A stretch of 64,000 bases of DNA, taken from NCBI RefSeq assembly GCF_050320075.1, contig NZ_CP190018.1; one strand, 5' to 3'. The notes beneath the pieces are model-generated. The model searched no databases. It was given only the letters and a program-made list of their open reading frames with translations, and was not told the origin of the DNA. Positions 21,223-28,829 of the stretch are shown piece by piece; position 1 is the first letter of the stretch; every line of letters starts with the position of its first letter. This DNA is from Escherichia coli. Lineage in GTDB: Bacteria > Pseudomonadota > Gammaproteobacteria > Enterobacterales > Enterobacteriaceae. The position numbers and the translations under genes were made by a program.

Positions 21223-21485
21223 GCGTCGTACCCCCGTTTGCGTCCGGCAATGCGCCCGGCCATCCATGCGGTGACTTCAGAGTGCAGCCAGGCCACATTT
21301 TTACCGCCAAGACTCACCTGCGGCGGAAATTCCCCTTTACGGATGAGTTCATAGATGGTCGAGCGTGACAGGCCGCACAGGTGCATCACTTCCGGCAGAC
21401 GTAAAAAACGCTCCTGCGTGATGTCCGGCAGCGGCATCAGTGGCGTCACAGGGGCGGGAGACGGGGAAGAAAAAACAGCTTGCAT
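21219..21485 (-). CDS. AlpA/Vis-family small DNA-binding regulator (excision/integration control)
   Basis: 88-aa ORF; HTH signature [48 protein letters not shown]; true start could be an internal Met. Confidence 0.75.
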
Positions 21486-21764
21486 CGGGCTACCTCGTTA
21501 ATGTCCATACAGCACCGGATAAGTCCGTCCGGCTTCGGGTAGCGCTTTATTTTGTGAATATTTTCAGCAGACGCAACAGGGGGGATTTGTTCCGGCAGTC
21601 TTACAATGGCTGTGTATTTTTTGTTCATCTCCACTTAAAGTCATTTAAAGCCACTTAAAGCAATTCGTAATTTTTATAGTGAAATACAAATCGTTTTTTC
21701 TTATTCATTCCCGGCGAATTAATAAAAACAAACAGTAATAAACAGCACAAAAAGCCCATCAACG

Positions 21765-21868
21765 GGTGAACAGTGGTGAACAGACGGTGAACAGTCATTA
21801 CTGCGATTGTTCACCCTTTAACTTACTGTATTACTTATCTTTTTTATTAAGGTGAACAGAGGTGAACA
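21765..21868. promoter_or_regulatory. cluster of six P4 type-I iterons, crr- or ori-like
   Basis: GGTGAACA at 21765, 21775, 21786, 21851 and 21861 (10-11 bp phasing) plus inverted TGTTCACC at 21808-21815; between the vis-like gene and sid. Confidence 0.65.
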
Positions 21869-22038
21869 GTAAAATATAAAAAAAACAAACAGTAAGCCGG
21901 TTTTTCCTGCGACCTTTTCCTGGCTTGCCGGTCTGAGGATGAGTCTCCTGTGTCAGGGCTGGCACATCTGCAATGCGTCGTGTTGTTGTCCGGTGTACGT
22001 CACAATTTTCTTAACCTGAAGTGACGAGGAGCCGGAAA

Positions 22039-22773
22039 ATGTCTGACAACACCATCCCTGAATATCTGCAACCCGCGCTGGCACAACTGGAAAAGGCCAG
22101 AGCCGCCCATCTTGAGAACGCCCGCCTGATGGATGAGACCGTCACGGCCATTGAACGGGCAGAACAGGAAAAAAATGCGCTGGCGCAGGCCGACGGAAAC
22201 GACGCTGACGACTGGCGCACGGCCTTTCGTGCAGCCGGTGGTGTCCTGAGCGACGAGCTGAAACAGCGCCACATTGAGCGCGTGGCACGCCGGGAGCTGG
22301 TACAGGAATATGACAATCTGGCCGTGGTGCTGAATTTTGAACGTGAACGCCTGAAAGGGGCGTGTGACAGCACGGCCACCGCCTACCGGAAGGCACATCA
22401 TCACCTGCTGAGTCTGTATGCAGAGCATGAGCTGGAACACGCCCTGAATGAAACCTGTGAGGCGCTTGTCCGGGCAATGCATCTGAGCATCCAGGTACAG
22501 GAAAATCCGCTCGCCAACACCACCGGCCATCAGGGCTACGTCGCGCCGGAAAAGGCTGTCATGCAGCAGGTGAAATCATCGCTGGAGCAGAAAATTAAAC
22601 AGATGCAAATCAGCCTCACCGGCGAGCCGGTTCTCCGGCTGACCGGACTGTCAGCGGCAACACTCCCGCACATGGATTATGAGGTGGCAGGCACACCGGC
22701 ACAGCGCAAGGTGTGGCAGGACAAAATAGACCAGCAGGGAGCAGAGCTTAAGGCCAGAGGACTGCTGTCATGA
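22039..22773 (+). CDS. sid: P4 Sid-like capsid size determination (external scaffold) protein
   Basis: 244 aa from ATG 22039 (MSDNTIPEYLQPALAQLEKARAAH...), SD GAGGAG 7 nt upstream; ORF track has a GTG start at 22021. Confidence 0.85.
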   Translation: MSDNTIPEYLQPALAQLEKARAAHLENARLMDETVTAIERAEQEKNALAQADGNDADDWRTAFRAAGGVLSDELKQRHIERVARRELVQEYDNLAVVLNFERERLKGACDSTATAYRKAHHHLLSLYAEHELEHALNETCEALVRAMHLSIQVQENPLANTTGHQGYVAPEKAVMQQVKSSLEQKIKQMQISLTGEPVLRLTGLSAATLPHMDYEVAGTPAQRKVWQDKIDQQGAELKARGLLS

Positions 22774-23270
22774 TTTACTGCCCGTCGTGTGGACATGTTG
22801 CTCACACCCGTCGCGCACATTTCATGGACGATGGCACCAAGATAATGATTGCACAGTGCCGGAATATTTATTGCTCTGCGACATTTGAAGCGAGTGAAAG
22901 CTTTTTCTCTGACAGTAAAGATTCAGGAATGGAATACATTTCAGGCAAACAGAGATACCGCGATTCACTGACGTCGGCCTCCGGCAGTATGAAACGCCCG
23001 AAAAGAATGCTTGTTACCGGATATTGTTGTCGGAGATGTAAAGGCCTTGCGCTGTCAAGAACATCGCGGCGTCTGTCTCAGGAAGTCACCGAGCGTTTTT
23101 ATGTGTGCACGGATCCGGGCTGTGGTCTGGTGTTTAAAACGCTTCAGACCATCACCCGCTTCATTGTCCGCCCGGTCACGCCGGACGAACTGGCAGAAAA
23201 CCTGCATGAAAAACAGGAACTGCCGCCAGTACGGTTAAAAACACAATCATATTCGCTGCGTCTGGAATGA
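22770..23270 (+). CDS. delta: P4 Delta-like late transcription activator (tandem Ogr-type zinc fingers)
   Basis: 166 aa; two Cys4 motifs CPSCGHVAH...CRNIYCSATFEASESF and CRRCKG...CTDPGCGLVF; start overlaps sid stop (ATGA). Confidence 0.85.
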   Translation: MIYCPSCGHVAHTRRAHFMDDGTKIMIAQCRNIYCSATFEASESFFSDSKDSGMEYISGKQRYRDSLTSASGSMKRPKRMLVTGYCCRRCKGLALSRTSRRLSQEVTERFYVCTDPGCGLVFKTLQTITRFIVRPVTPDELAENLHEKQELPPVRLKTQSYSLRLE

Positions 23271-23343
23271 GGGCTGCCGGTTAACACCGGCCGTCGCCAC
23301 ACACCGTATTTTTATTCTTCAGCATGATGAGAAAGAGATAACG

Positions 23344-23916
23344 ATGGAAAGCACAGCCTTACAGCAGGCCTTTGACACCTGTCAGAATAACAAAGCAGCA
23401 TGGCTGCAACGCAAAAATGAGCTGACTGCGGCCGAACAGGAATATCTGCGGCTTCTGTCAGGAGAAGGCAGAAACGTCAGTCACCTGGACGAATTACGCA
23501 ATATTATCGAAGTCAGAAAATGGCAGGTGAATCAGGCCGCCGGTCGTTATATTCGTTCGCATGAAGCCGTTCAGCACATCAGCATCCGCGACCGGCTGAA
23601 TGATTTTATGCAGCAGCACGGCACAGTACTGGCGGCCGCACTGGCACCGGAGCTGATGGGCTACAGTGAGCTGACGGCCATTGCCCGAAACTGTGCCATA
23701 CAGCGTGCCACAGATGCCCTGCGTGAAGCCCTTCTGTCCTGGCTTGCGAAGGGTGAAAAAATTAATTATTCCGTACAGGATAGCGACATTTTAACGACCA
23801 TCGGATTCAGGCCTGACGCGGCTTCGGTGGATGACAGCCGTGAAAAATTCACCCCTGCGCAGAACATGATTTTTTCGCGCAAAAGTGCGCAACTGGCATC
23901 ACATCAGTCTGTGTAA
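23344..23916 (+). CDS. psu: P4 Psu-like polarity suppression protein
   Basis: 190-aa ORF following delta, just upstream of cos; length and order as in P4. Confidence 0.85.
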   Translation: MESTALQQAFDTCQNNKAAWLQRKNELTAAEQEYLRLLSGEGRNVSHLDELRNIIEVRKWQVNQAAGRYIRSHEAVQHISIRDRLNDFMQQHGTVLAAALAPELMGYSELTAIARNCAIQRATDALREALLSWLAKGEKINYSVQDSDILTTIGFRPDAASVDDSREKFTPAQNMIFSRKSAQLASHQSV

Positions 23917-23952
23917 AACTCCCCGAAAATCCGCCCGTTTTTACTGAAAAAA

Positions 23953-23980
23953 GCCATGCATCGATAAGGTGCATGGCTTT
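23953..23980 (+). terminator. hairpin after psu (possible terminator)
   Basis: GCCATGCA tcgataagg TGCATGGC stem-loop followed by TTT. Confidence 0.4.
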
Positions 23981-24080
23981 GCATGCGTTTTCCTGCCTCA
24001 TTTTCTGCAAACCGTGCCATTCCCGGCGCGGTCTGAGCGTGTCAGTACAACTGCATTAAAACCGCCCCGCAAAGCGGGCG

Positions 24081-24099
24081 GGCGAGGCGGGGAAAGCAC
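24081..24099. other. cos site: 19-nt P2/P4-type cohesive-end sequence
   Basis: GGCGAGGCGGGGAAAGCAC matches the P2/186/P4 cohesive-end sequence as I recall it; lies just downstream of psu. Confidence 0.7.
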
Positions 24100-24349: not shown

Positions 24350-27076
24350 TTAGTTGATTAGGTGTGACTCAGTTGCAGAGTGACCTTTTTTTGTCCTAAC
24401 AAACTTGATAGCAAGTGTTTTTCCTCTAATGTAATTAGACCAGTTATATTTTTCTTCACCAAGGCAACTGTCCCTATGAATTAATATTTCTTTTCCATCA
24501 GAATCTCTGGCAAAAACAAATCCTTTTCCTAATGTAAGATCTGAATATATTTCTGCTATAGAATATCCATTATTTTTCCATGTGATTTGTTCGAATTCGG
24601 CAATTGTTTTAGATGAGCTAAAAGCACTCCATTTGGGGGAGGTGAATGGGTTGTTTGGTATTTTTGTTGCTCTCATTGTTGAAATGATATTAACTACTTC
24701 TTTACTTGATATCTTAAAATCTTTAGAGAACTTTGTAATGTCGGCAAGATTGCTTTCAGCAAAATCAATTACTTTTATAATGAATTGTTGAGATAGTTTA
24801 TCAATGTTGTTTTTGATCGTGTCACAAAAAAGATTTAAAGATTTAATAGCTTCGTCAGAAAGTCGATCGCTGATGTTTTCTTTTTCAAATATAAATTCCA
24901 ATATGTCGATAACTTCAGATATGTTTTTTTCTACAGACTCAGGGTTAATGTCGAAGTTATTTTCACAAGAACGCTTTAATGCGGCGACTCTAAAGTAAGC
25001 TTGCTCTTGAGGTGAATGTGAATCTTTCCATTTTTCAGTGTATTCAAGAATGTCTGGGTATTCTTTACCATAAAGATGAACACCTAAATACTCTCGCATT
25101 ATTATAGAAGACAGTACTTCGCCTGAATGCTCAACTCTGTCGAATCCAGAATCAATCAATTCCTGAGATACTTTTTGAGCCTCTATAAAATCACCAATAT
25201 CTTTATAGATATACATCAGAGTTAAGTTGTTTAGTGGATTTTCAGACTCTATGCCTATTGCTGACTTTATACAAGAAATAGCACCTAAATTATCACCCTG
25301 CTTATGTAGTATTCTGGCATATGTTCGCATAAATAGAGGATTTTTTTGATATATTTGAGCGAGTGTTTTAAAATCCTCATAAATAACATTTAATTTATCT
25401 TTGTTAACGCTTTTGTAGCCTAAAATTTTATTTGCTCTGTTAACAGCTATTTGCAAGGAGTCAGGGCTATTATTAGGGATGAATCGATAATCAAACCGAT
25501 CTATTTCTTTATCTTGTTGGAATTTTTGTAAGTGCAATATTTCAGTTCGTTGTTTTCTTGCTTTTTCAGCAATAATGTTTCTGACGGTGTTATTTCTTGG
25601 TGATGTGATTAATAGTTCTTTGATTGATTCACTTAAAGAAAACTCTTCTTCTCCCGTATTAGATGTTTTCCGGGATACTAAAGATGTGTTCAATATTTCT
25701 TTAATCGCTTTTGCTATTGAGTCGGGATCTGAATCTAAGAAATGAGTTAAAAATGATCTTGATGATGCTCCGGTGACAAACAAGCATTCAAGAATAGATA
25801 TTGCATCGTTACTTAAAACATCTAATAGATTATTAAATGAAAATGCAGCGATATCTTTTTTGGATTTTTCTATTGAGTCAGGTAAAGCCATTCCATTATA
25901 AATGGAATCTATTGTAAGCCTTATTGCTAAGGGGTTAAAATGAGTCACTTCAGTAATTCTCGTGAGTTCTTCTGGGGTTAAGTTTATTATCCCTCGTTTA
26001 TCTGAATATGATTTGGCTAGATGGAAAGCCACACCAGATTGCAATTCCTTAAGTGAAATTGGGTAAGCTCCGTCAACCATTATTCGACTAGTGACTACCA
26101 CTTTAAAATTCGAAGGAAGAGTATACTGGAAACGAATGAACTCATCAGGACCATCTCTTAATAAAGTTTCGAGATTATCGATACATAGGAGAGTGCTTTC
26201 TATATCTTGGTCGTTTATAATTTCTGAATATAGATCATCATAGTTTTCTATCTCTTCATCAGGATTAAAAAACTCCACTATTTCTTTTTTTATTTCAGAA
26301 ATGGTGTCAATGTTTTTTAACTCAGAAATACCATCAGCAGTGAGATGATGTTTCTTTAATGTTAAATAGCAAATGTTTTTGAATTTCTCATTGGCTTTTG
26401 GTGAGATGCTCAATTCTTTTAAGAAATCTAAAATTAAAGCGGTTTTTCCTACGCCTCCAGGAGCTACAACCGCAATGAATGGAGTTCGATCGTTATTTAT
26501 TGCTGATAATAACTCTTTCTTTTCACCTTTACGGCCTATAAGGCTGGTAATGTCGTGATCAAATTTATCAGGCAGGTTGTTATTAATTTCCCAGCTAATA
26601 GTAGAAAACCATTCTTCTGGAGGTGCTTTTAATTGACCAGTAGATGCGGAATAATAAGCATCCTTCACACTTTTTAAACCAAGTACTTCTATATATGGAT
26701 GTGAGGCTATAGCTGCAGCGCAATGCCAGTAATGCTCATGGAATGGTCGGGTTGGATGACTAATTTGATTTCTTATAAAAAATAAATCAACAGCTGTACA
26801 GAACTCTTTCAGTTCTGACAGTTTATCATAGTCAGATGTACCCTTAGCTAATTGCAGGGCATAATTGAAAATTTCACCGATATAACTTGCTTGGATAAGA
26901 GTTTGCGTATTGAAAACGGGACCTCTCCCACGCTCCAGTTCTAGTTTAGAACGAGGTTCGAAATGTTCGCTTAACCTACTTTTACCTCCTGCATCCTCAC
27001 TAACAACATACGCCGCCAATGCTTTTTCTAAGGCATAAACTATCATACTAGTTTTCGTATCAAGATATTCAGACAT
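24350..27076 (-). CDS. STAND/NB-ARC-type P-loop NTPase with N-terminal Rx4H domain, helical repeats and C-terminal cold-shock-like OB-fold segment; candidate anti-phage defence cargo
   Basis: 908-aa ORF with AAGGA SD 6 nt upstream; Walker A IAVVAPGGVGKT (nt 26441-26458), Walker B TLLCIDNLE, sensor-I-like KVVVTSR, GLPL-like HFNPLAI; AT-rich; sits between cos/psu and int. Confidence 0.85.
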   Translation of the reverse strand: MSEYLDTKTSMIVYALEKALAAYVVSEDAGGKSRLSEHFEPRSKLELERGRGPVFNTQTLIQASYIGEIFNYALQLAKGTSDYDKLSELKEFCTAVDLFFIRNQISHPTRPFHEHYWHCAAAIASHPYIEVLGLKSVKDAYYSASTGQLKAPPEEWFSTISWEINNNLPDKFDHDITSLIGRKGEKKELLSAINNDRTPFIAVVAPGGVGKTALILDFLKELSISPKANEKFKNICYLTLKKHHLTADGISELKNIDTISEIKKEIVEFFNPDEEIENYDDLYSEIINDQDIESTLLCIDNLETLLRDGPDEFIRFQYTLPSNFKVVVTSRIMVDGAYPISLKELQSGVAFHLAKSYSDKRGIINLTPEELTRITEVTHFNPLAIRLTIDSIYNGMALPDSIEKSKKDIAAFSFNNLLDVLSNDAISILECLFVTGASSRSFLTHFLDSDPDSIAKAIKEILNTSLVSRKTSNTGEEEFSLSESIKELLITSPRNNTVRNIIAEKARKQRTEILHLQKFQQDKEIDRFDYRFIPNNSPDSLQIAVNRANKILGYKSVNKDKLNVIYEDFKTLAQIYQKNPLFMRTYARILHKQGDNLGAISCIKSAIGIESENPLNNLTLMYIYKDIGDFIEAQKVSQELIDSGFDRVEHSGEVLSSIIMREYLGVHLYGKEYPDILEYTEKWKDSHSPQEQAYFRVAALKRSCENNFDINPESVEKNISEVIDILEFIFEKENISDRLSDEAIKSLNLFCDTIKNNIDKLSQQFIIKVIDFAESNLADITKFSKDFKISSKEVVNIISTMRATKIPNNPFTSPKWSAFSSSKTIAEFEQITWKNNGYSIAEIYSDLTLGKGFVFARDSDGKEILIHRDSCLGEEKYNWSNYIRGKTLAIKFVRTKKGHSATESHLIN

Positions 27077-27094: not shown

Positions 27095-28282
27095 TTAAAG
27101 AGTGGTTTGCAATCCCCACCAATTCATTAACTCTATACGTTGTTCTAAATAGGTACTTCTATTGTAAGCTTTTCGAACCTCATTCCTCTCGGAATGCGCC
27201 AATGCTGCTTCAATAACATCAGGATTAAATTCTGCTTCGTTCATTGCCGTACTGGCAATTGATCTTAGTCCATGGGCCACTAACTTACCGCCATAACCTA
27301 TTCTCTTCAAGGCAGCGTTTGCCGTCTGACTGTTCATCGGCTGTTTTGGATCGTTTCTGCTCGGGAAAATATGTTCACGGTGACCACTGATAGGCTTCAT
27401 TACTTCCAAAATACCTAAAGCCTGAGGTGACAAAGGGACAATGTGTTCACGTTTAGCCTTCATTCGTTCGGCGGGAATCGTCCAGAGTTTGGCCTCGAGA
27501 TCGATCTCGACCCACCGAGCACCAGAAGCCTCAGAAGGGCGCACTAGGGTCAGGAGCTGCCACTCGATAAGACAGCGAGTCGGAACAGACAGATTCGACA
27601 TTACCAGAGAACGCATCAGCTTAGGTAATTCTTCGGGTCGTAGCGTGGGCATATTCTGCTTTTTGGGTTTCTCAAATGCCATTCCAACACCTGATGCTGG
27701 ATTTGCATCAATTAGACCAGTGTTTACGGCATAAATCATTATCTCGTTAATGCGCTGTACCAGACGACGTACCGTCTCTAGCGCGCCACGTGCTTTGATT
27801 GGTTCGAGGGTTTCAACAAGTGTTCGGGCTTTGATTTGCTGAACAGGGAGCTCACCGATGGCAGGTAATACATCTTTTTCCAGGGAACGCCAAATGTCTT
27901 TCGCGTAATCAGGGGTAACGCTTTTGCTTTTTATCTGGAACCAGTTGGTCGCAACAGTCGAAAAAATACTGTCTAGAGCTATCTGTTGTTGTTCTTCGAT
28001 AAATTCAGCTTGAACTTGTGGGTCTATACCATTAGCCAACAAAGCAAGGTAATCCGCTCTTAACCGTCGAGCATCAGCAAGTGAAAGGGCGGGGAAAGCA
28101 CCAAGCCCCATCATTGTCCGCTGTTTTGTTGCTGGACGTTGATAACGGAAACGCCACAACTTCTTACCGTTCGTTTTAACGAGCAGAAAAAGGCCATCGC
28201 CATCATGTAACGTTAGATCCTTTTCTAACGCTTTAGCGCGCAGAACTTCGGTGTTGGTCAGGGGGCGTGTTGTTCTTGCCAC
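27095..28282 (-). CDS. int: tyrosine site-specific integrase (P4/CP4-57 IntA type), ssrA-specific
   Basis: 395-aa ORF with GTG start; catalytic motifs AHGLRSIA and KAYNRSTYLE; next to the ssrA 3' end. Confidence 0.9.
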   Translation of the reverse strand: MARTTRPLTNTEVLRAKALEKDLTLHDGDGLFLLVKTNGKKLWRFRYQRPATKQRTMMGLGAFPALSLADARRLRADYLALLANGIDPQVQAEFIEEQQQIALDSIFSTVATNWFQIKSKSVTPDYAKDIWRSLEKDVLPAIGELPVQQIKARTLVETLEPIKARGALETVRRLVQRINEIMIYAVNTGLIDANPASGVGMAFEKPKKQNMPTLRPEELPKLMRSLVMSNLSVPTRCLIEWQLLTLVRPSEASGARWVEIDLEAKLWTIPAERMKAKREHIVPLSPQALGILEVMKPISGHREHIFPSRNDPKQPMNSQTANAALKRIGYGGKLVAHGLRSIASTAMNEAEFNPDVIEAALAHSERNEVRKAYNRSTYLEQRIELMNWWGLQTTL

Positions 28283-28304: not shown

Positions 28305-28352
28305 GGTATACGTGTTTAGGTATACATCCTACCGTATACCTAAACGTATACC
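28305..28352. promoter_or_regulatory. four GTATACC/GGTATAC repeats in an imperfect inverted arrangement upstream of int (candidate arm-type sites / int promoter region)
   Basis: GGTATAC at 28305 and 28319, GTATACC at 28334 and 28346. Confidence 0.45.
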
Positions 28353-28466
28353 AATAATCACTGGATTTAGCTGGATATCCTCGGACAATGGTAGACACAA
28401 AAAAGCCCGCAGAGCTTGTGCCATGCGGGCTTTCAGGATTTCTCCGGACGTATCCGGAAGAGCAAG

Positions 28467-28481
28467 TGGTGGAGCTGGCGG
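28467..28481. repeat. attL-side direct repeat (ssrA 3' terminus)
   Basis: TGGTGGAGCTGGCGG, identical to 16764-16778. Confidence 0.75.
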
Positions 28482-28829
28482 GAGTTGAACCCGCGTCCGA
28501 AATTCCTACGTCCTCGGTACTACATGCTTAGTCAGTCTTTACATTCGCTTGCCAGCTGCGGACGGACACGCCACTAACAAACTAGCCTGATTAAGTTTTA
28601 ACGCTTCAACCCCAGGCAGGGCTTCCACGCGATCTCTTTTGGGTTTGACCTCTCTTGATCCCCGTCCTAAGAGCGGAGGCTAGGGAGAGAGGGCTCTAAG
28701 CAGGTTATTAAGCTGCTAAAGCGTAGTTTTCGTCGTTTGCGACTATTTTTTGCGGCTTTTTACGAGGCCAACCGCCCCTCGGCATGCACCTTGGGTTTCG
28801 CAAATCCCGTCGAATCCAGAATCAGCCCC
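28467..28829 (-). ncRNA. ssrA: tmRNA (SsrA), 363 nt
   Basis: Reverse complement reads GGGGCTGATTCTGGATTCGACGGGATTTGCGAAACCCAAGGTGCATGCC...GGTTCAACTCCCGCCAGCTCCACCA. Confidence 0.95.

What the first reader, a model, noticed from the sequence alone, without database searches (positions are those of the whole stretch)
21765..21868. Helically phased TGTTCACC-type iterons between the vis-like gene and sid (crr- or ori-like)
Five direct GGTGAACA octamers at 10-11 bp centre-to-centre spacing plus one inverted TGTTCACC occur within ~100 bp. TGTTCACC is the type-I iteron bound by P4 alpha protein at ori and crr, as I recall. A second cluster lies ~4.8 kb away beyond the primase gene.
Basis: partly seen in the sequence, partly recalled or inferred. 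Interest (0 to 1): 0.5.

Follow-up and report, generated by a model that had tools for sequence, protein, structure and literature searches.

The report
Replication origin of a P4 satellite prophage
The repeated octamers are the well-known replication origin (ori) of a satellite-phage-P4-type prophage sitting in the E. coli tmRNA gene. The finding is real but ordinary.

Summary
GGTGAACA occurs at 21765, 21775, 21786, 21851 and 21861 (+), and inverted at 21808. There are 12 copies in the window against 1.9 expected, and six of them lie within 104 bp.

The region is the annotated origin of DNA replication of satellite phage P4. Window 21400-22100 is 98.4% identical to X51522 8945-9644. The iteron block is base-for-base identical to P4's six "ori type 1 repeats". 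So it is ori, not crr.

The second cluster (16949-17040) is crr. It has only one of P4's two 120-bp repeats, owing to a clean 180-bp deletion.

The cognate initiator alpha (17091-19424, minus strand) is 771/777 identical to P4 alpha and includes the origin-binding domain solved as PDB 1KA8. Cnr is 100% identical.

The element is an 11.7-kb P4-like prophage in ssrA. The same ori occurs in 1066 of 5426 complete E. coli genomes. Its 3+1/AT-rich/2 layout is kept across many Enterobacterales genera while the spacers diverge.

Interest is low.

The parts
21765..21868 (+). Core of ori (ori1) of a P4-like satellite prophage: six type-1 iterons arranged 3 direct + 1 inverted, then an AT-rich stretch, then 2 direct
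   Evidence: Identical to P4 X51522 9310-9413, annotated as six 'ori type 1 repeat' inside 'origin of DNA replication'. Motif enrichment shown.
21765..21772 (+). Type-1 iteron 1 (GGTGAACA)
21775..21782 (+). Type-1 iteron 2 (GGTGAACA)
21786..21793 (+). Type-1 iteron 3 (GGTGAACA). It forms an inverted repeat with iteron 4.
21808..21815 (-). Type-1 iteron 4, inverted (TGTTCACC on the + strand)
   Evidence: Conserved at 0.97 in 49 Enterobacterales origins although it was not part of the search pattern.
21816..21850 (.). 35-bp AT-rich stretch (83% A+T) between iterons 4 and 5. Inferred to be the DNA-unwinding region.
   Evidence: Composition and conservation (0.81). The core CTGTATTACTTATCTTTTT is nearly invariant across genera.
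21851..21858 (+). Type-1 iteron 5 (GGTGAACA)
   Evidence: conservation 0.92.
21861..21868 (+). Type-1 iteron 6 (GGTGAACA)
   Evidence: conservation 0.83, often GGTGAATA in relatives.
21631..21660 (+). Three 10-bp 'ori type 2 repeats' (YCAYTTAAAG x3). They are annotated in P4 but are not conserved in other P4-like elements.
   Evidence: Maps to X51522 9176-9205. Other repeat sets stand in this place in relatives.
16926..17045 (+). crr (cis replication region): a single 120-bp unit with five type-1 iterons at 16949, 16958, 17001, 17019 and 17033
   Evidence: Aligns to the P4 crr repeats. It is 180 bp shorter than in P4 and in the 99.8%-identical E. coli Ec-U3 element.
17091..19424 (-). alpha gene: primase / SF3 helicase / origin-binding initiator
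   Evidence: 771/777 identical to P4 alpha. Residues 671-770 match PDB 1KA8, E=1e-63.
19439..19759 (-). cnr (ORF106), the copy-number regulator of the oriI replicon
   Evidence: 106/106 identical to P4 ORF106.
21219..21485 (-). vis (ORF88), left neighbour of ori
22039..22773 (+). sid, right neighbour of ori
16764..16786 (+). Distal att core: a partial copy of the ssrA 3' end that marks the end of the prophage
   Evidence: Direct repeat D10 with 28467-28489, spacing 11,703 bp.
28467..28829 (-). ssrA (tmRNA), the integration target. Its 3' end carries the proximal att core.
27095..28282 (-). Integrase of the element. It is not the P4 integrase type that targets leuX.
   Evidence: NF007246, E=8.5e-175. 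The P4 DNA match stops at crr and at cos.

Best explanation
The site is ori (ori1 of the oriI replicon) of an 11.7-kb P4-type satellite prophage integrated in the E. coli ssrA gene.

Shown here:
- The sequence is the P4 origin, with six type-1 iterons and an AT-rich core identical to P4.
- It sits between vis and sid.
- It is accompanied by a near-identical alpha initiator, an identical Cnr, and a crr unit 3' of alpha.

Inferred from P4 biochemistry and genetics, and not tested here:
- When the prophage is derepressed or excised, alpha binds the GGTGAACA octamers at ori and at crr through its C-terminal winged-helix domain.
- The phased sites place several alpha molecules on one face of the helix. 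Ori and crr are brought together.
- The 35-bp AT-rich segment between iterons 4 and 5 melts. Alpha's SF3 helicase and DnaG-type primase domains then unwind and prime bidirectional theta replication, independently of host DnaA and DnaG.
- Cnr limits copy number by acting on alpha.
- In the integrated, immune state alpha is not made and the origin is silent.
For: - Identity with P4: 98.4% over 701 bp to P4 X51522 8945-9644, and 100% across the iteron block. GenBank annotates this stretch as 'origin of DNA replication' with 6 type-1 and 3 type-2 repeats.
- Alpha is 771/777 identical to P4 alpha, and its DNA-binding domain matches PDB 1KA8. Cnr is identical.
- A crr unit carrying the same octamers lies 3' of alpha.
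- The prophage limits and the P4 gene order (alpha, cnr, the C4-family immunity RNA, vis, sid, delta, psu, cos, cargo gene, int) are all present.
- Phylogenetic footprint, similarity-found set: two divergent E. coli elements found by similarity (79-83% identity) keep five octamers exactly and the sixth with one change (GTGAATA). They also keep the spacing, while the flanks are rewritten.
- Phylogenetic footprint, pattern-found set: in 49 distinct Enterobacterales origins, the three iterons that were not in the search pattern are conserved at 0.97, 0.92 and 0.83. Short spacers score 0.43-0.49 and flanks 0.32-0.54.
- The ori / alpha / crr-like-cluster layout recurs in at least 15 loci from other genera.
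- Literature held in the library: P4 alpha binds the origin repeats with a winged-helix domain, then unwinds and primes (PMC4234260). P4 autonomous replication depends on alpha and its cognate site (PMC6092414).
Against: - Nothing contradicts the identification.
- Function in this particular element is untested.
- crr has lost one of the two 120-bp repeats that 1192 of 1269 E. coli copies appear to retain. That could in principle lower origin efficiency.
- Iterons 1-3 in the cross-genus set were fixed by the search pattern, so their conservation there is not independent evidence.
- The primary P4 replication papers were not available in the library. Details of the mechanism rest on my recollection of them: Ziegelin et al. 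1993 EMBO J; Flensburg & Calendar 1987 J Mol Biol; Tocchetti et al. 1999 J Virol.
Confidence: 0.95

Rival explanations
1. The origin is a silent relic. The element is a cryptic P4-like prophage that can no longer replicate autonomously, and the iterons persist only because the insertion is recent.
For: - One crr repeat has been deleted relative to the closest relatives.
- P4-like remnants are common at ssrA. For example, E. coli ZH49 (L002) lacks alpha yet keeps the iterons.
- No functional test was possible.
Against: - Every known replicon part is intact: iteron block 100% identical, alpha full length at 99%, Cnr 100%, and one complete crr unit.
- int, vis, sid, delta and psu, and both att cores, are intact, and the element has P4's unit length of 11.7 kb.
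- Most P4-like elements in other genera have only one crr-like unit directly after alpha. From memory, one repeat suffices in P4 (Flensburg & Calendar 1987).
Confidence: 0.1
2. The octamers act mainly as operator sites for transcriptional control of the divergent late promoters (PLL for vis, Psid for sid), rather than as an origin.
For: - They lie in the vis-sid intergenic region.
- No sigma-70-like promoters are predicted there, in keeping with activator-dependent promoters.
- A TGT-N12-ACA dyad of the P2/P4 late-promoter type lies about 85 bp to the right, at 21949-21966, read directly from the sequence.
Against: - The same octamers recur only at crr, which lies downstream of alpha where there is no promoter to regulate.
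- The site is annotated as the P4 origin.
- The iterons travel with alpha homologues across genera, while the neighbouring regulatory repeats change.
- A regulatory side-effect of alpha binding is not excluded, but it would be secondary.
Confidence: 0.03
3. The site is crr rather than ori.
For: It has the same octamer and a broadly similar layout of four iterons, an AT-rich stretch and two iterons.
Against: - It aligns end-to-end with P4 ori, not with crr.
- It lies between vis and sid.
- crr is separately identified at 16926-17045, 3' of alpha.
Confidence: 0.01

Closest known systems
Satellite phage P4 ori (ori1), GenBank X51522 9086-9809, type-1 repeats at 9310-9413
   Same: - Identical six octamers, spacers and AT-rich core.
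- Same flanking genes (vis/ORF88 and sid).
- Same initiator alpha (99%) and Cnr (100%).
   Different: - There are 8 differences in the 506 aligned columns, 7 substitutions and one extra A, all outside the iteron block.
- The host element integrates in ssrA with a different integrase.
- It carries a different cargo gene in place of P4 gop/beta/cII.
P4 crr (X51522 4291-4590)
   Same: It has the same type-1 octamers. The window's own crr at 16926-17045 is homologous to it.
   Different: - The finding's site is not crr.
- The window's crr has one 120-bp unit instead of two. Its left end matches P4 repeat 1 and the rest matches repeat 2, as expected from recombination or slippage between the direct repeats.
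Iteron origins of Gram-negative PICIs and theta plasmids (two iteron sets flanking an AT-rich region)
   Same: The general logic is shared: phased initiator-binding repeats flank an AT-rich melting region (PMC6092414).
   Different: - PICI Pri-Rep proteins differ in sequence from P4 alpha (PMC6092414).
- P4-type origins are bipartite (ori plus a distant crr), and the initiator also carries the primase and the helicase.

Membership tests
P4 ori1 (origin of the oriI replicon) | Sequence homology to the mapped P4 origin | tested here: met
   98.4% over 701 bp. The iteron block is 100% identical to X51522 9310-9413.
P4 ori1 (origin of the oriI replicon) | Six type-1 iterons (TGTTCACC / GGTGAACA) spaced close to the helical repeat | tested here: met
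   Starts at 21765, 21775, 21786, 21808 (inverted), 21851 and 21861. The phase spread is 70 degrees or less at 10.5 bp per turn.
P4 ori1 (origin of the oriI replicon) | An AT-rich segment of about 35 bp within the iteron array | tested here: met
   21816-21850 is 83% A+T, against 51% for the window.
P4 ori1 (origin of the oriI replicon) | Location between vis (ORF88) and sid | tested here: met
P4 ori1 (origin of the oriI replicon) | Cognate alpha initiator with primase, SF3 helicase and a C-terminal winged-helix origin-binding domain, encoded in cis | tested here: met
   771/777 identity to P4 alpha. Residues 671-770 match PDB 1KA8.
P4 ori1 (origin of the oriI replicon) | A second cis site, crr, with type-1 iterons 3' of alpha, about 4.5-5 kb from ori | tested here: met
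   Five iterons at 16949-17040, 4.7 kb from ori. Only one 120-bp unit is present.
P4 ori1 (origin of the oriI replicon) | cnr gene present | tested here: met
   106/106 identity.
P4 ori1 (origin of the oriI replicon) | Alpha binds the iterons, and replication starts here in an alpha-dependent way | not testable with these tools
   Known for P4 itself (secondary citation PMC4234260). This element needs EMSA or footprinting and a replication assay.
P4 crr | Homology to the 120-bp crr repeat and a position directly 3' of alpha | tested here: not met
   The finding's site aligns to ori and lies between vis and sid. crr is the separate site at 16926-17045.
P4-like satellite prophage | Core gene set (alpha, cnr, immunity RNA, vis, sid, delta, psu, cos, int) within about 11-12 kb bounded by att repeats at a tRNA or tmRNA gene | tested here: met
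   - P4 4291-11624 matches at 98.4%.
- The C4-family RNA is at 20875-20962.
- The att cores are 11,703 bp apart.
- tmRNA is present.
- The RefSeq annotation of the 99.8% twin gives the same gene set.

The most novel reading that the evidence does not exclude
The only departure from textbook P4 is that crr has collapsed to a single 120-bp unit by a clean 180-bp deletion between the direct repeats. About 94% of E. coli copies appear to keep two units. The most novel reading left open is that the number of crr units is a natural, reversible dial on alpha titration and on copy number or plasmid-state stability of P4-like satellites. A second open point concerns the 'type 2' repeats next to ori, which vary between lineages. 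They might be a separate specificity determinant that co-evolves with a regulator such as Vis.
Probability: 0.1. Interest if true: 0.3.

Novelty: already known. Interest (0 to 1): 0.08.

Why it matters
It matters little as a discovery. This is the origin of replication of a very well-studied satellite phage, in one of about a thousand near-identical copies in sequenced E. coli.

It has some practical value:
- RefSeq leaves the site unannotated ('none' under every hit), so the identification fills an annotation gap.
- Intact ori, crr, alpha and cnr mark this ssrA island as a probably replication-competent, mobilisable P4-like satellite that carries a STAND-like NTPase cargo gene.
- The cross-genus comparison gives a clean footprint of which origin positions are constrained: the six octamers, their spacing, and the CTGTATTACTTATCTTTTT core.

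Tried and rejected
- Primary P4 replication papers could not be read. Ziegelin 1993, Tocchetti 1999 and the Lindqvist 1993 review are not held.
- Full-text searches returned only secondary mentions. One search failed because a search term was too short.
- NCBIfam gave no names for vis, sid, cnr, ORF151 or the cargo gene. PADLOC gave only a weak hit for the cargo gene.
- The consensus promoter scan found no sigma-70-type promoter in the vis-sid spacer. I therefore placed PLL and Psid only approximately, from P4 knowledge.
- The old X02534 annotation, which runs a '5' untranslated region' through the iterons, was judged outdated and was not used.
- A cluster of four one-mismatch octamers inside int (27331-27452) has irregular spacing and was set aside as probable chance.
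- The crr reading of the site was rejected by alignment.
- In the cross-genus set, conservation of iterons 1-3 is circular because the search pattern fixed them. I did not count it. Only iterons 4-6 and the two similarity-found divergent elements were used as evidence.
- The three small ORFs between duplicated crr-like units in L058 had no family match.

Full report
**Observation.** The region reads GGTGAACAGT GGTGAACAGAC GGTGAACAG tcattactgcgat TGTTCACC, then a 35-bp AT-rich stretch, then GGTGAACAGA GGTGAACAG. An exact search finds the octamer at 21765, 21775, 21786, 21851 and 21861 on the + strand and at 21808 on the - strand. The 64-kb window holds 12 copies, against 1.89 +/- 1.40 in shuffles, and none of 100 shuffles reaches 12. 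With about 0.003 copies expected per 104 bp, six copies there are not chance. The direct copies form a group of three and a group of two rather than one even run. All six centres still lie within about 70 degrees of one helical face. The stretch between iterons 4 and 5 (21816-21850) is 83% A+T, against 51% for the window.

**Identity.** Window 21400-22100 matches satellite phage P4 (X51522 / NC_001609) positions 8945-9644 at 98.4% over its full length. The GenBank record annotates that stretch as 'origin of DNA replication', with six 'ori type 1 repeat' features at 9310-9413 and three 'ori type 2 repeat' features at 9176-9205. In a pairwise alignment the whole iteron block, spacers and AT-rich core included, is identical to P4. 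The 506 aligned columns differ at 8 positions, 7 substitutions and one extra A, and all of these lie outside the block. The site is therefore P4 ori (ori1), not crr. The type-2 repeats map to window 21631-21660.

**The rest of the replicon.**
- Window 16926-24081 is collinear with P4 4291-11624 at 98.4%.
- Alpha (17091-19424, - strand) is 771/777 identical to P4 alpha. Residues 671-770 match PDB 1KA8, the solved origin-binding winged-helix domain, at E=1e-63. The six substitutions lie outside residues 671-770.
- Cnr/ORF106 (19439-19759, - strand) is 106/106 identical.
It has five type-1 iterons at 16949, 16958, 17001, 17019 and 17033, three exact and two with one mismatch. It lies immediately 3' of alpha and its terminator.
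- P4 has two 120-bp crr repeats separated by 60 bp. The window has one. Its left end matches P4 repeat 1 and the remainder matches repeat 2.
- Against a 99.8%-identical element in E. coli Ec-U3, the only structural difference is a clean 180-bp deletion whose junction lies in the shared TGTTCACACTGTTCACCTTTC. This is the expected product of recombination or slippage between the direct repeats.

**The element.**
- ARAGORN and Rfam place ssrA (tmRNA) at 28467-28829 on the - strand.
- A 23-bp copy of its 3' end recurs at 16764-16786, 11,703 bp away. Arm-type repeats (CGTATACCTAAnCGTATACCAAT) lie inside both ends.
- Between the att cores the order is crr, alpha, cnr, ORF151, epsilon, the immunity region, vis, ori, sid, delta, psu, cos, a 908-aa cargo gene, and a tyrosine integrase. 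The immunity region gives C4-family and isrK-type Rfam hits at 20875-21160.
- This is a unit-length P4-like satellite prophage. It uses ssrA rather than P4's leuX site, and it has a different integrase and cargo gene.
- The surrounding genes (ypjA, smpB, clpB, an rRNA operon) and the BLAST results place the window in an E. coli chromosome.

**Comparative evidence of constraint.**
- The 301-bp ori segment is present in 1066 of 5426 complete E. coli genomes (1269 places). It is always chromosomal, and no feature is annotated under it.
- Two divergent copies found by similarity alone (79-83% identity; L002, L003) keep five octamers exactly and the sixth with one change (GTGAATA). They also keep the spacing and the CTGTATTACTTATCTTTTT core. 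The left flank, including the type-2 repeats, is replaced.
- A pattern scan of one genome per species with iterons 1-3 returned 61 loci. Most come from Enterobacterales genera such as Klebsiella, Enterobacter, Citrobacter, Raoultella, Pantoea, Erwinia, Kosakonia, Buttiauxella, Edwardsiella and Mangrovibacter.
- In 49 distinct origins from that scan, the three iterons that were not in the pattern are conserved at 0.97, 0.92 and 0.83, and the AT-rich core at 0.81. The short spacers score 0.43-0.49 and the flanks 0.32-0.54. Iterons 1-3 are fixed by the pattern and were not counted.
- Where the flanks allow, the same loci hold an alpha homologue (58-85% identity), a sid homologue beside ori, and a crr-like cluster of about 90 bp just 3' of alpha. 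The internal layout of that cluster is conserved across genera.

**One crr unit or two.** In E. coli the P4 inter-repeat spacer is found at 1192 places, against 1269 for ori. About 94% of copies therefore appear to have two units, and the window's state is the minority. In other genera a single unit directly after alpha is usual. From memory, Flensburg & Calendar (1987) showed that one repeat suffices in P4. The comparative pattern agrees with that, but I could not read the paper.

**Mechanism.** The sequence identity and the complete set of replicon parts are shown. The mechanism is inferred from P4. [quoted passage not shown] Another states that P4 autonomous replication depends on alpha and its cognate site (PMC6092414). 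From my own knowledge of the P4 literature:
- Alpha binds type-1 iterons at both ori and crr (Ziegelin et al. 1993).
- Replication is bidirectional theta-type and does not need host DnaA or DnaG.
- The minimal ori1 is about 123 bp, comprising the six iterons plus the 35-bp AT-rich region. Deleting iterons, or inserting 6 or 10 bp, inactivates it (Tocchetti et al. 1999).
- Cnr restrains copy number through alpha.

The window's DNA-binding domain and iterons are identical to P4's, so the same specificity is expected. In the prophage state alpha is not expressed and the origin is silent.

**Rivals.**
- A relic origin in a cryptic element is possible but unlikely, because every part is intact and only one crr unit is missing.
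- A purely transcriptional role does not explain the same octamers at crr or their association with alpha.
- The crr reading is excluded by alignment.
- Chance is excluded by the counts.

**Verdict.** The feature is already known. The only local peculiarity is the single-unit crr.

Noticed in passing
window 16926-17045: crr has one 120-bp unit instead of P4's two. It is a clean 180-bp deletion relative to a 99.8%-identical element in E. coli Ec-U3. This is the minority state in E. coli (about 6% of copies) but the usual state in other genera.
   Followed up: yes
window 21631-21660; loci L002-L064 at about -130 to -60 from iteron 1: P4's three 'type 2' repeats (YCAYTTAAAG) are replaced in other P4-like elements by different repeats phased at 10-11 bp. 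Examples are TGGCAAAC x3-6, TTGGCC-type and CAATATCC-type. The type-1 iterons stay unchanged. This looks like a lineage-specific binding array, perhaps for Vis or another regulator near PLL.
   Followed up: partly
window 24350-27076 (-): A 908-aa cargo gene lies in the P4 variable hotspot between cos and int. It has weak AAA_16 / nSTAND1 Pfam matches and a weak PADLOC PDC-S27 hit, and RefSeq calls it a 'P-loop NTPase family protein'. It is a candidate STAND-type anti-phage gene.
   Followed up: partly
window 21720-21738 and 21877-21895: A 19-bp direct repeat, TAAWAAAAACAAACAGTAA, brackets the iteron block 157 bp apart. The right-hand copy is conserved in divergent elements and the left-hand copy is not.
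   Followed up: partly
window 16840-16862 and 28333-28355: Repeats of CGTATACCTAAnCGTATACCAAT lie just inside both prophage ends. They are probably integrase arm-type sites of this ssrA-specific element.
   Followed up: no
window 20875-21160 (-): Rfam hits to C4 antisense RNA, its a1/b1 targets and isrK. Together they correspond to the P4 CI-RNA immunity region.
   Followed up: no
window 11900-16603 (+): A 1567-aa ORF ends just outside the distal att core. The 99.8% twin element in E. coli Ec-U3 has the ypjA/ehaD adhesin-like autotransporter at this position. The P4-like element therefore sits between ssrA and the ypjA island.
   Followed up: partly
L004 844-930; L011 9184-9274 (Haemophilus spp.): Arrays of 3 + 2 GGTGAACA octamers surround an AT-rich core. 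In L011 the array lies next to HK97-type capsid, protease and portal genes, and no alpha homologue is found in the fetched DNA. The iteron word and layout match P4's, but the mobile element is a different one.
   Followed up: partly
L010 7821-8050, L012 2515-2735, L063 1078-1298 (Erwinia psidii, Tatumella, Rahnella): Distant alpha homologues (38-50% identity) have 9-12 GTGAACA-type iterons over about 220 bp immediately 3' of the primase gene. This suggests a single-site origin rather than the split ori/crr layout.
   Followed up: no
L038, L055, L057, L058 (Raoultella, Phytobacter, Enterobacter): Two crr-like units lie 2-2.6 kb apart. In L058 they bracket three small ORFs that have no NCBIfam or PADLOC match. 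This may be a second cargo slot framed by crr repeats.
   Followed up: partly
L015, L018, L059 (archaeal MAGs); L028, L033, L034, L039, L052 (Prevotellaceae/Bacteroidales): Unrelated contigs carry dense arrays of TGTGAACA (archaea) or a conserved TGTGAACATTTGTGAACACATTGTGAACAG (Bacteroidales). They are presumably other iteron or operator systems that share the word by convergence.
   Followed up: no
window 27331-27452: Four one-mismatch copies of the octamer lie inside the integrase gene at irregular spacing. They are probably chance.
   Followed up: partly
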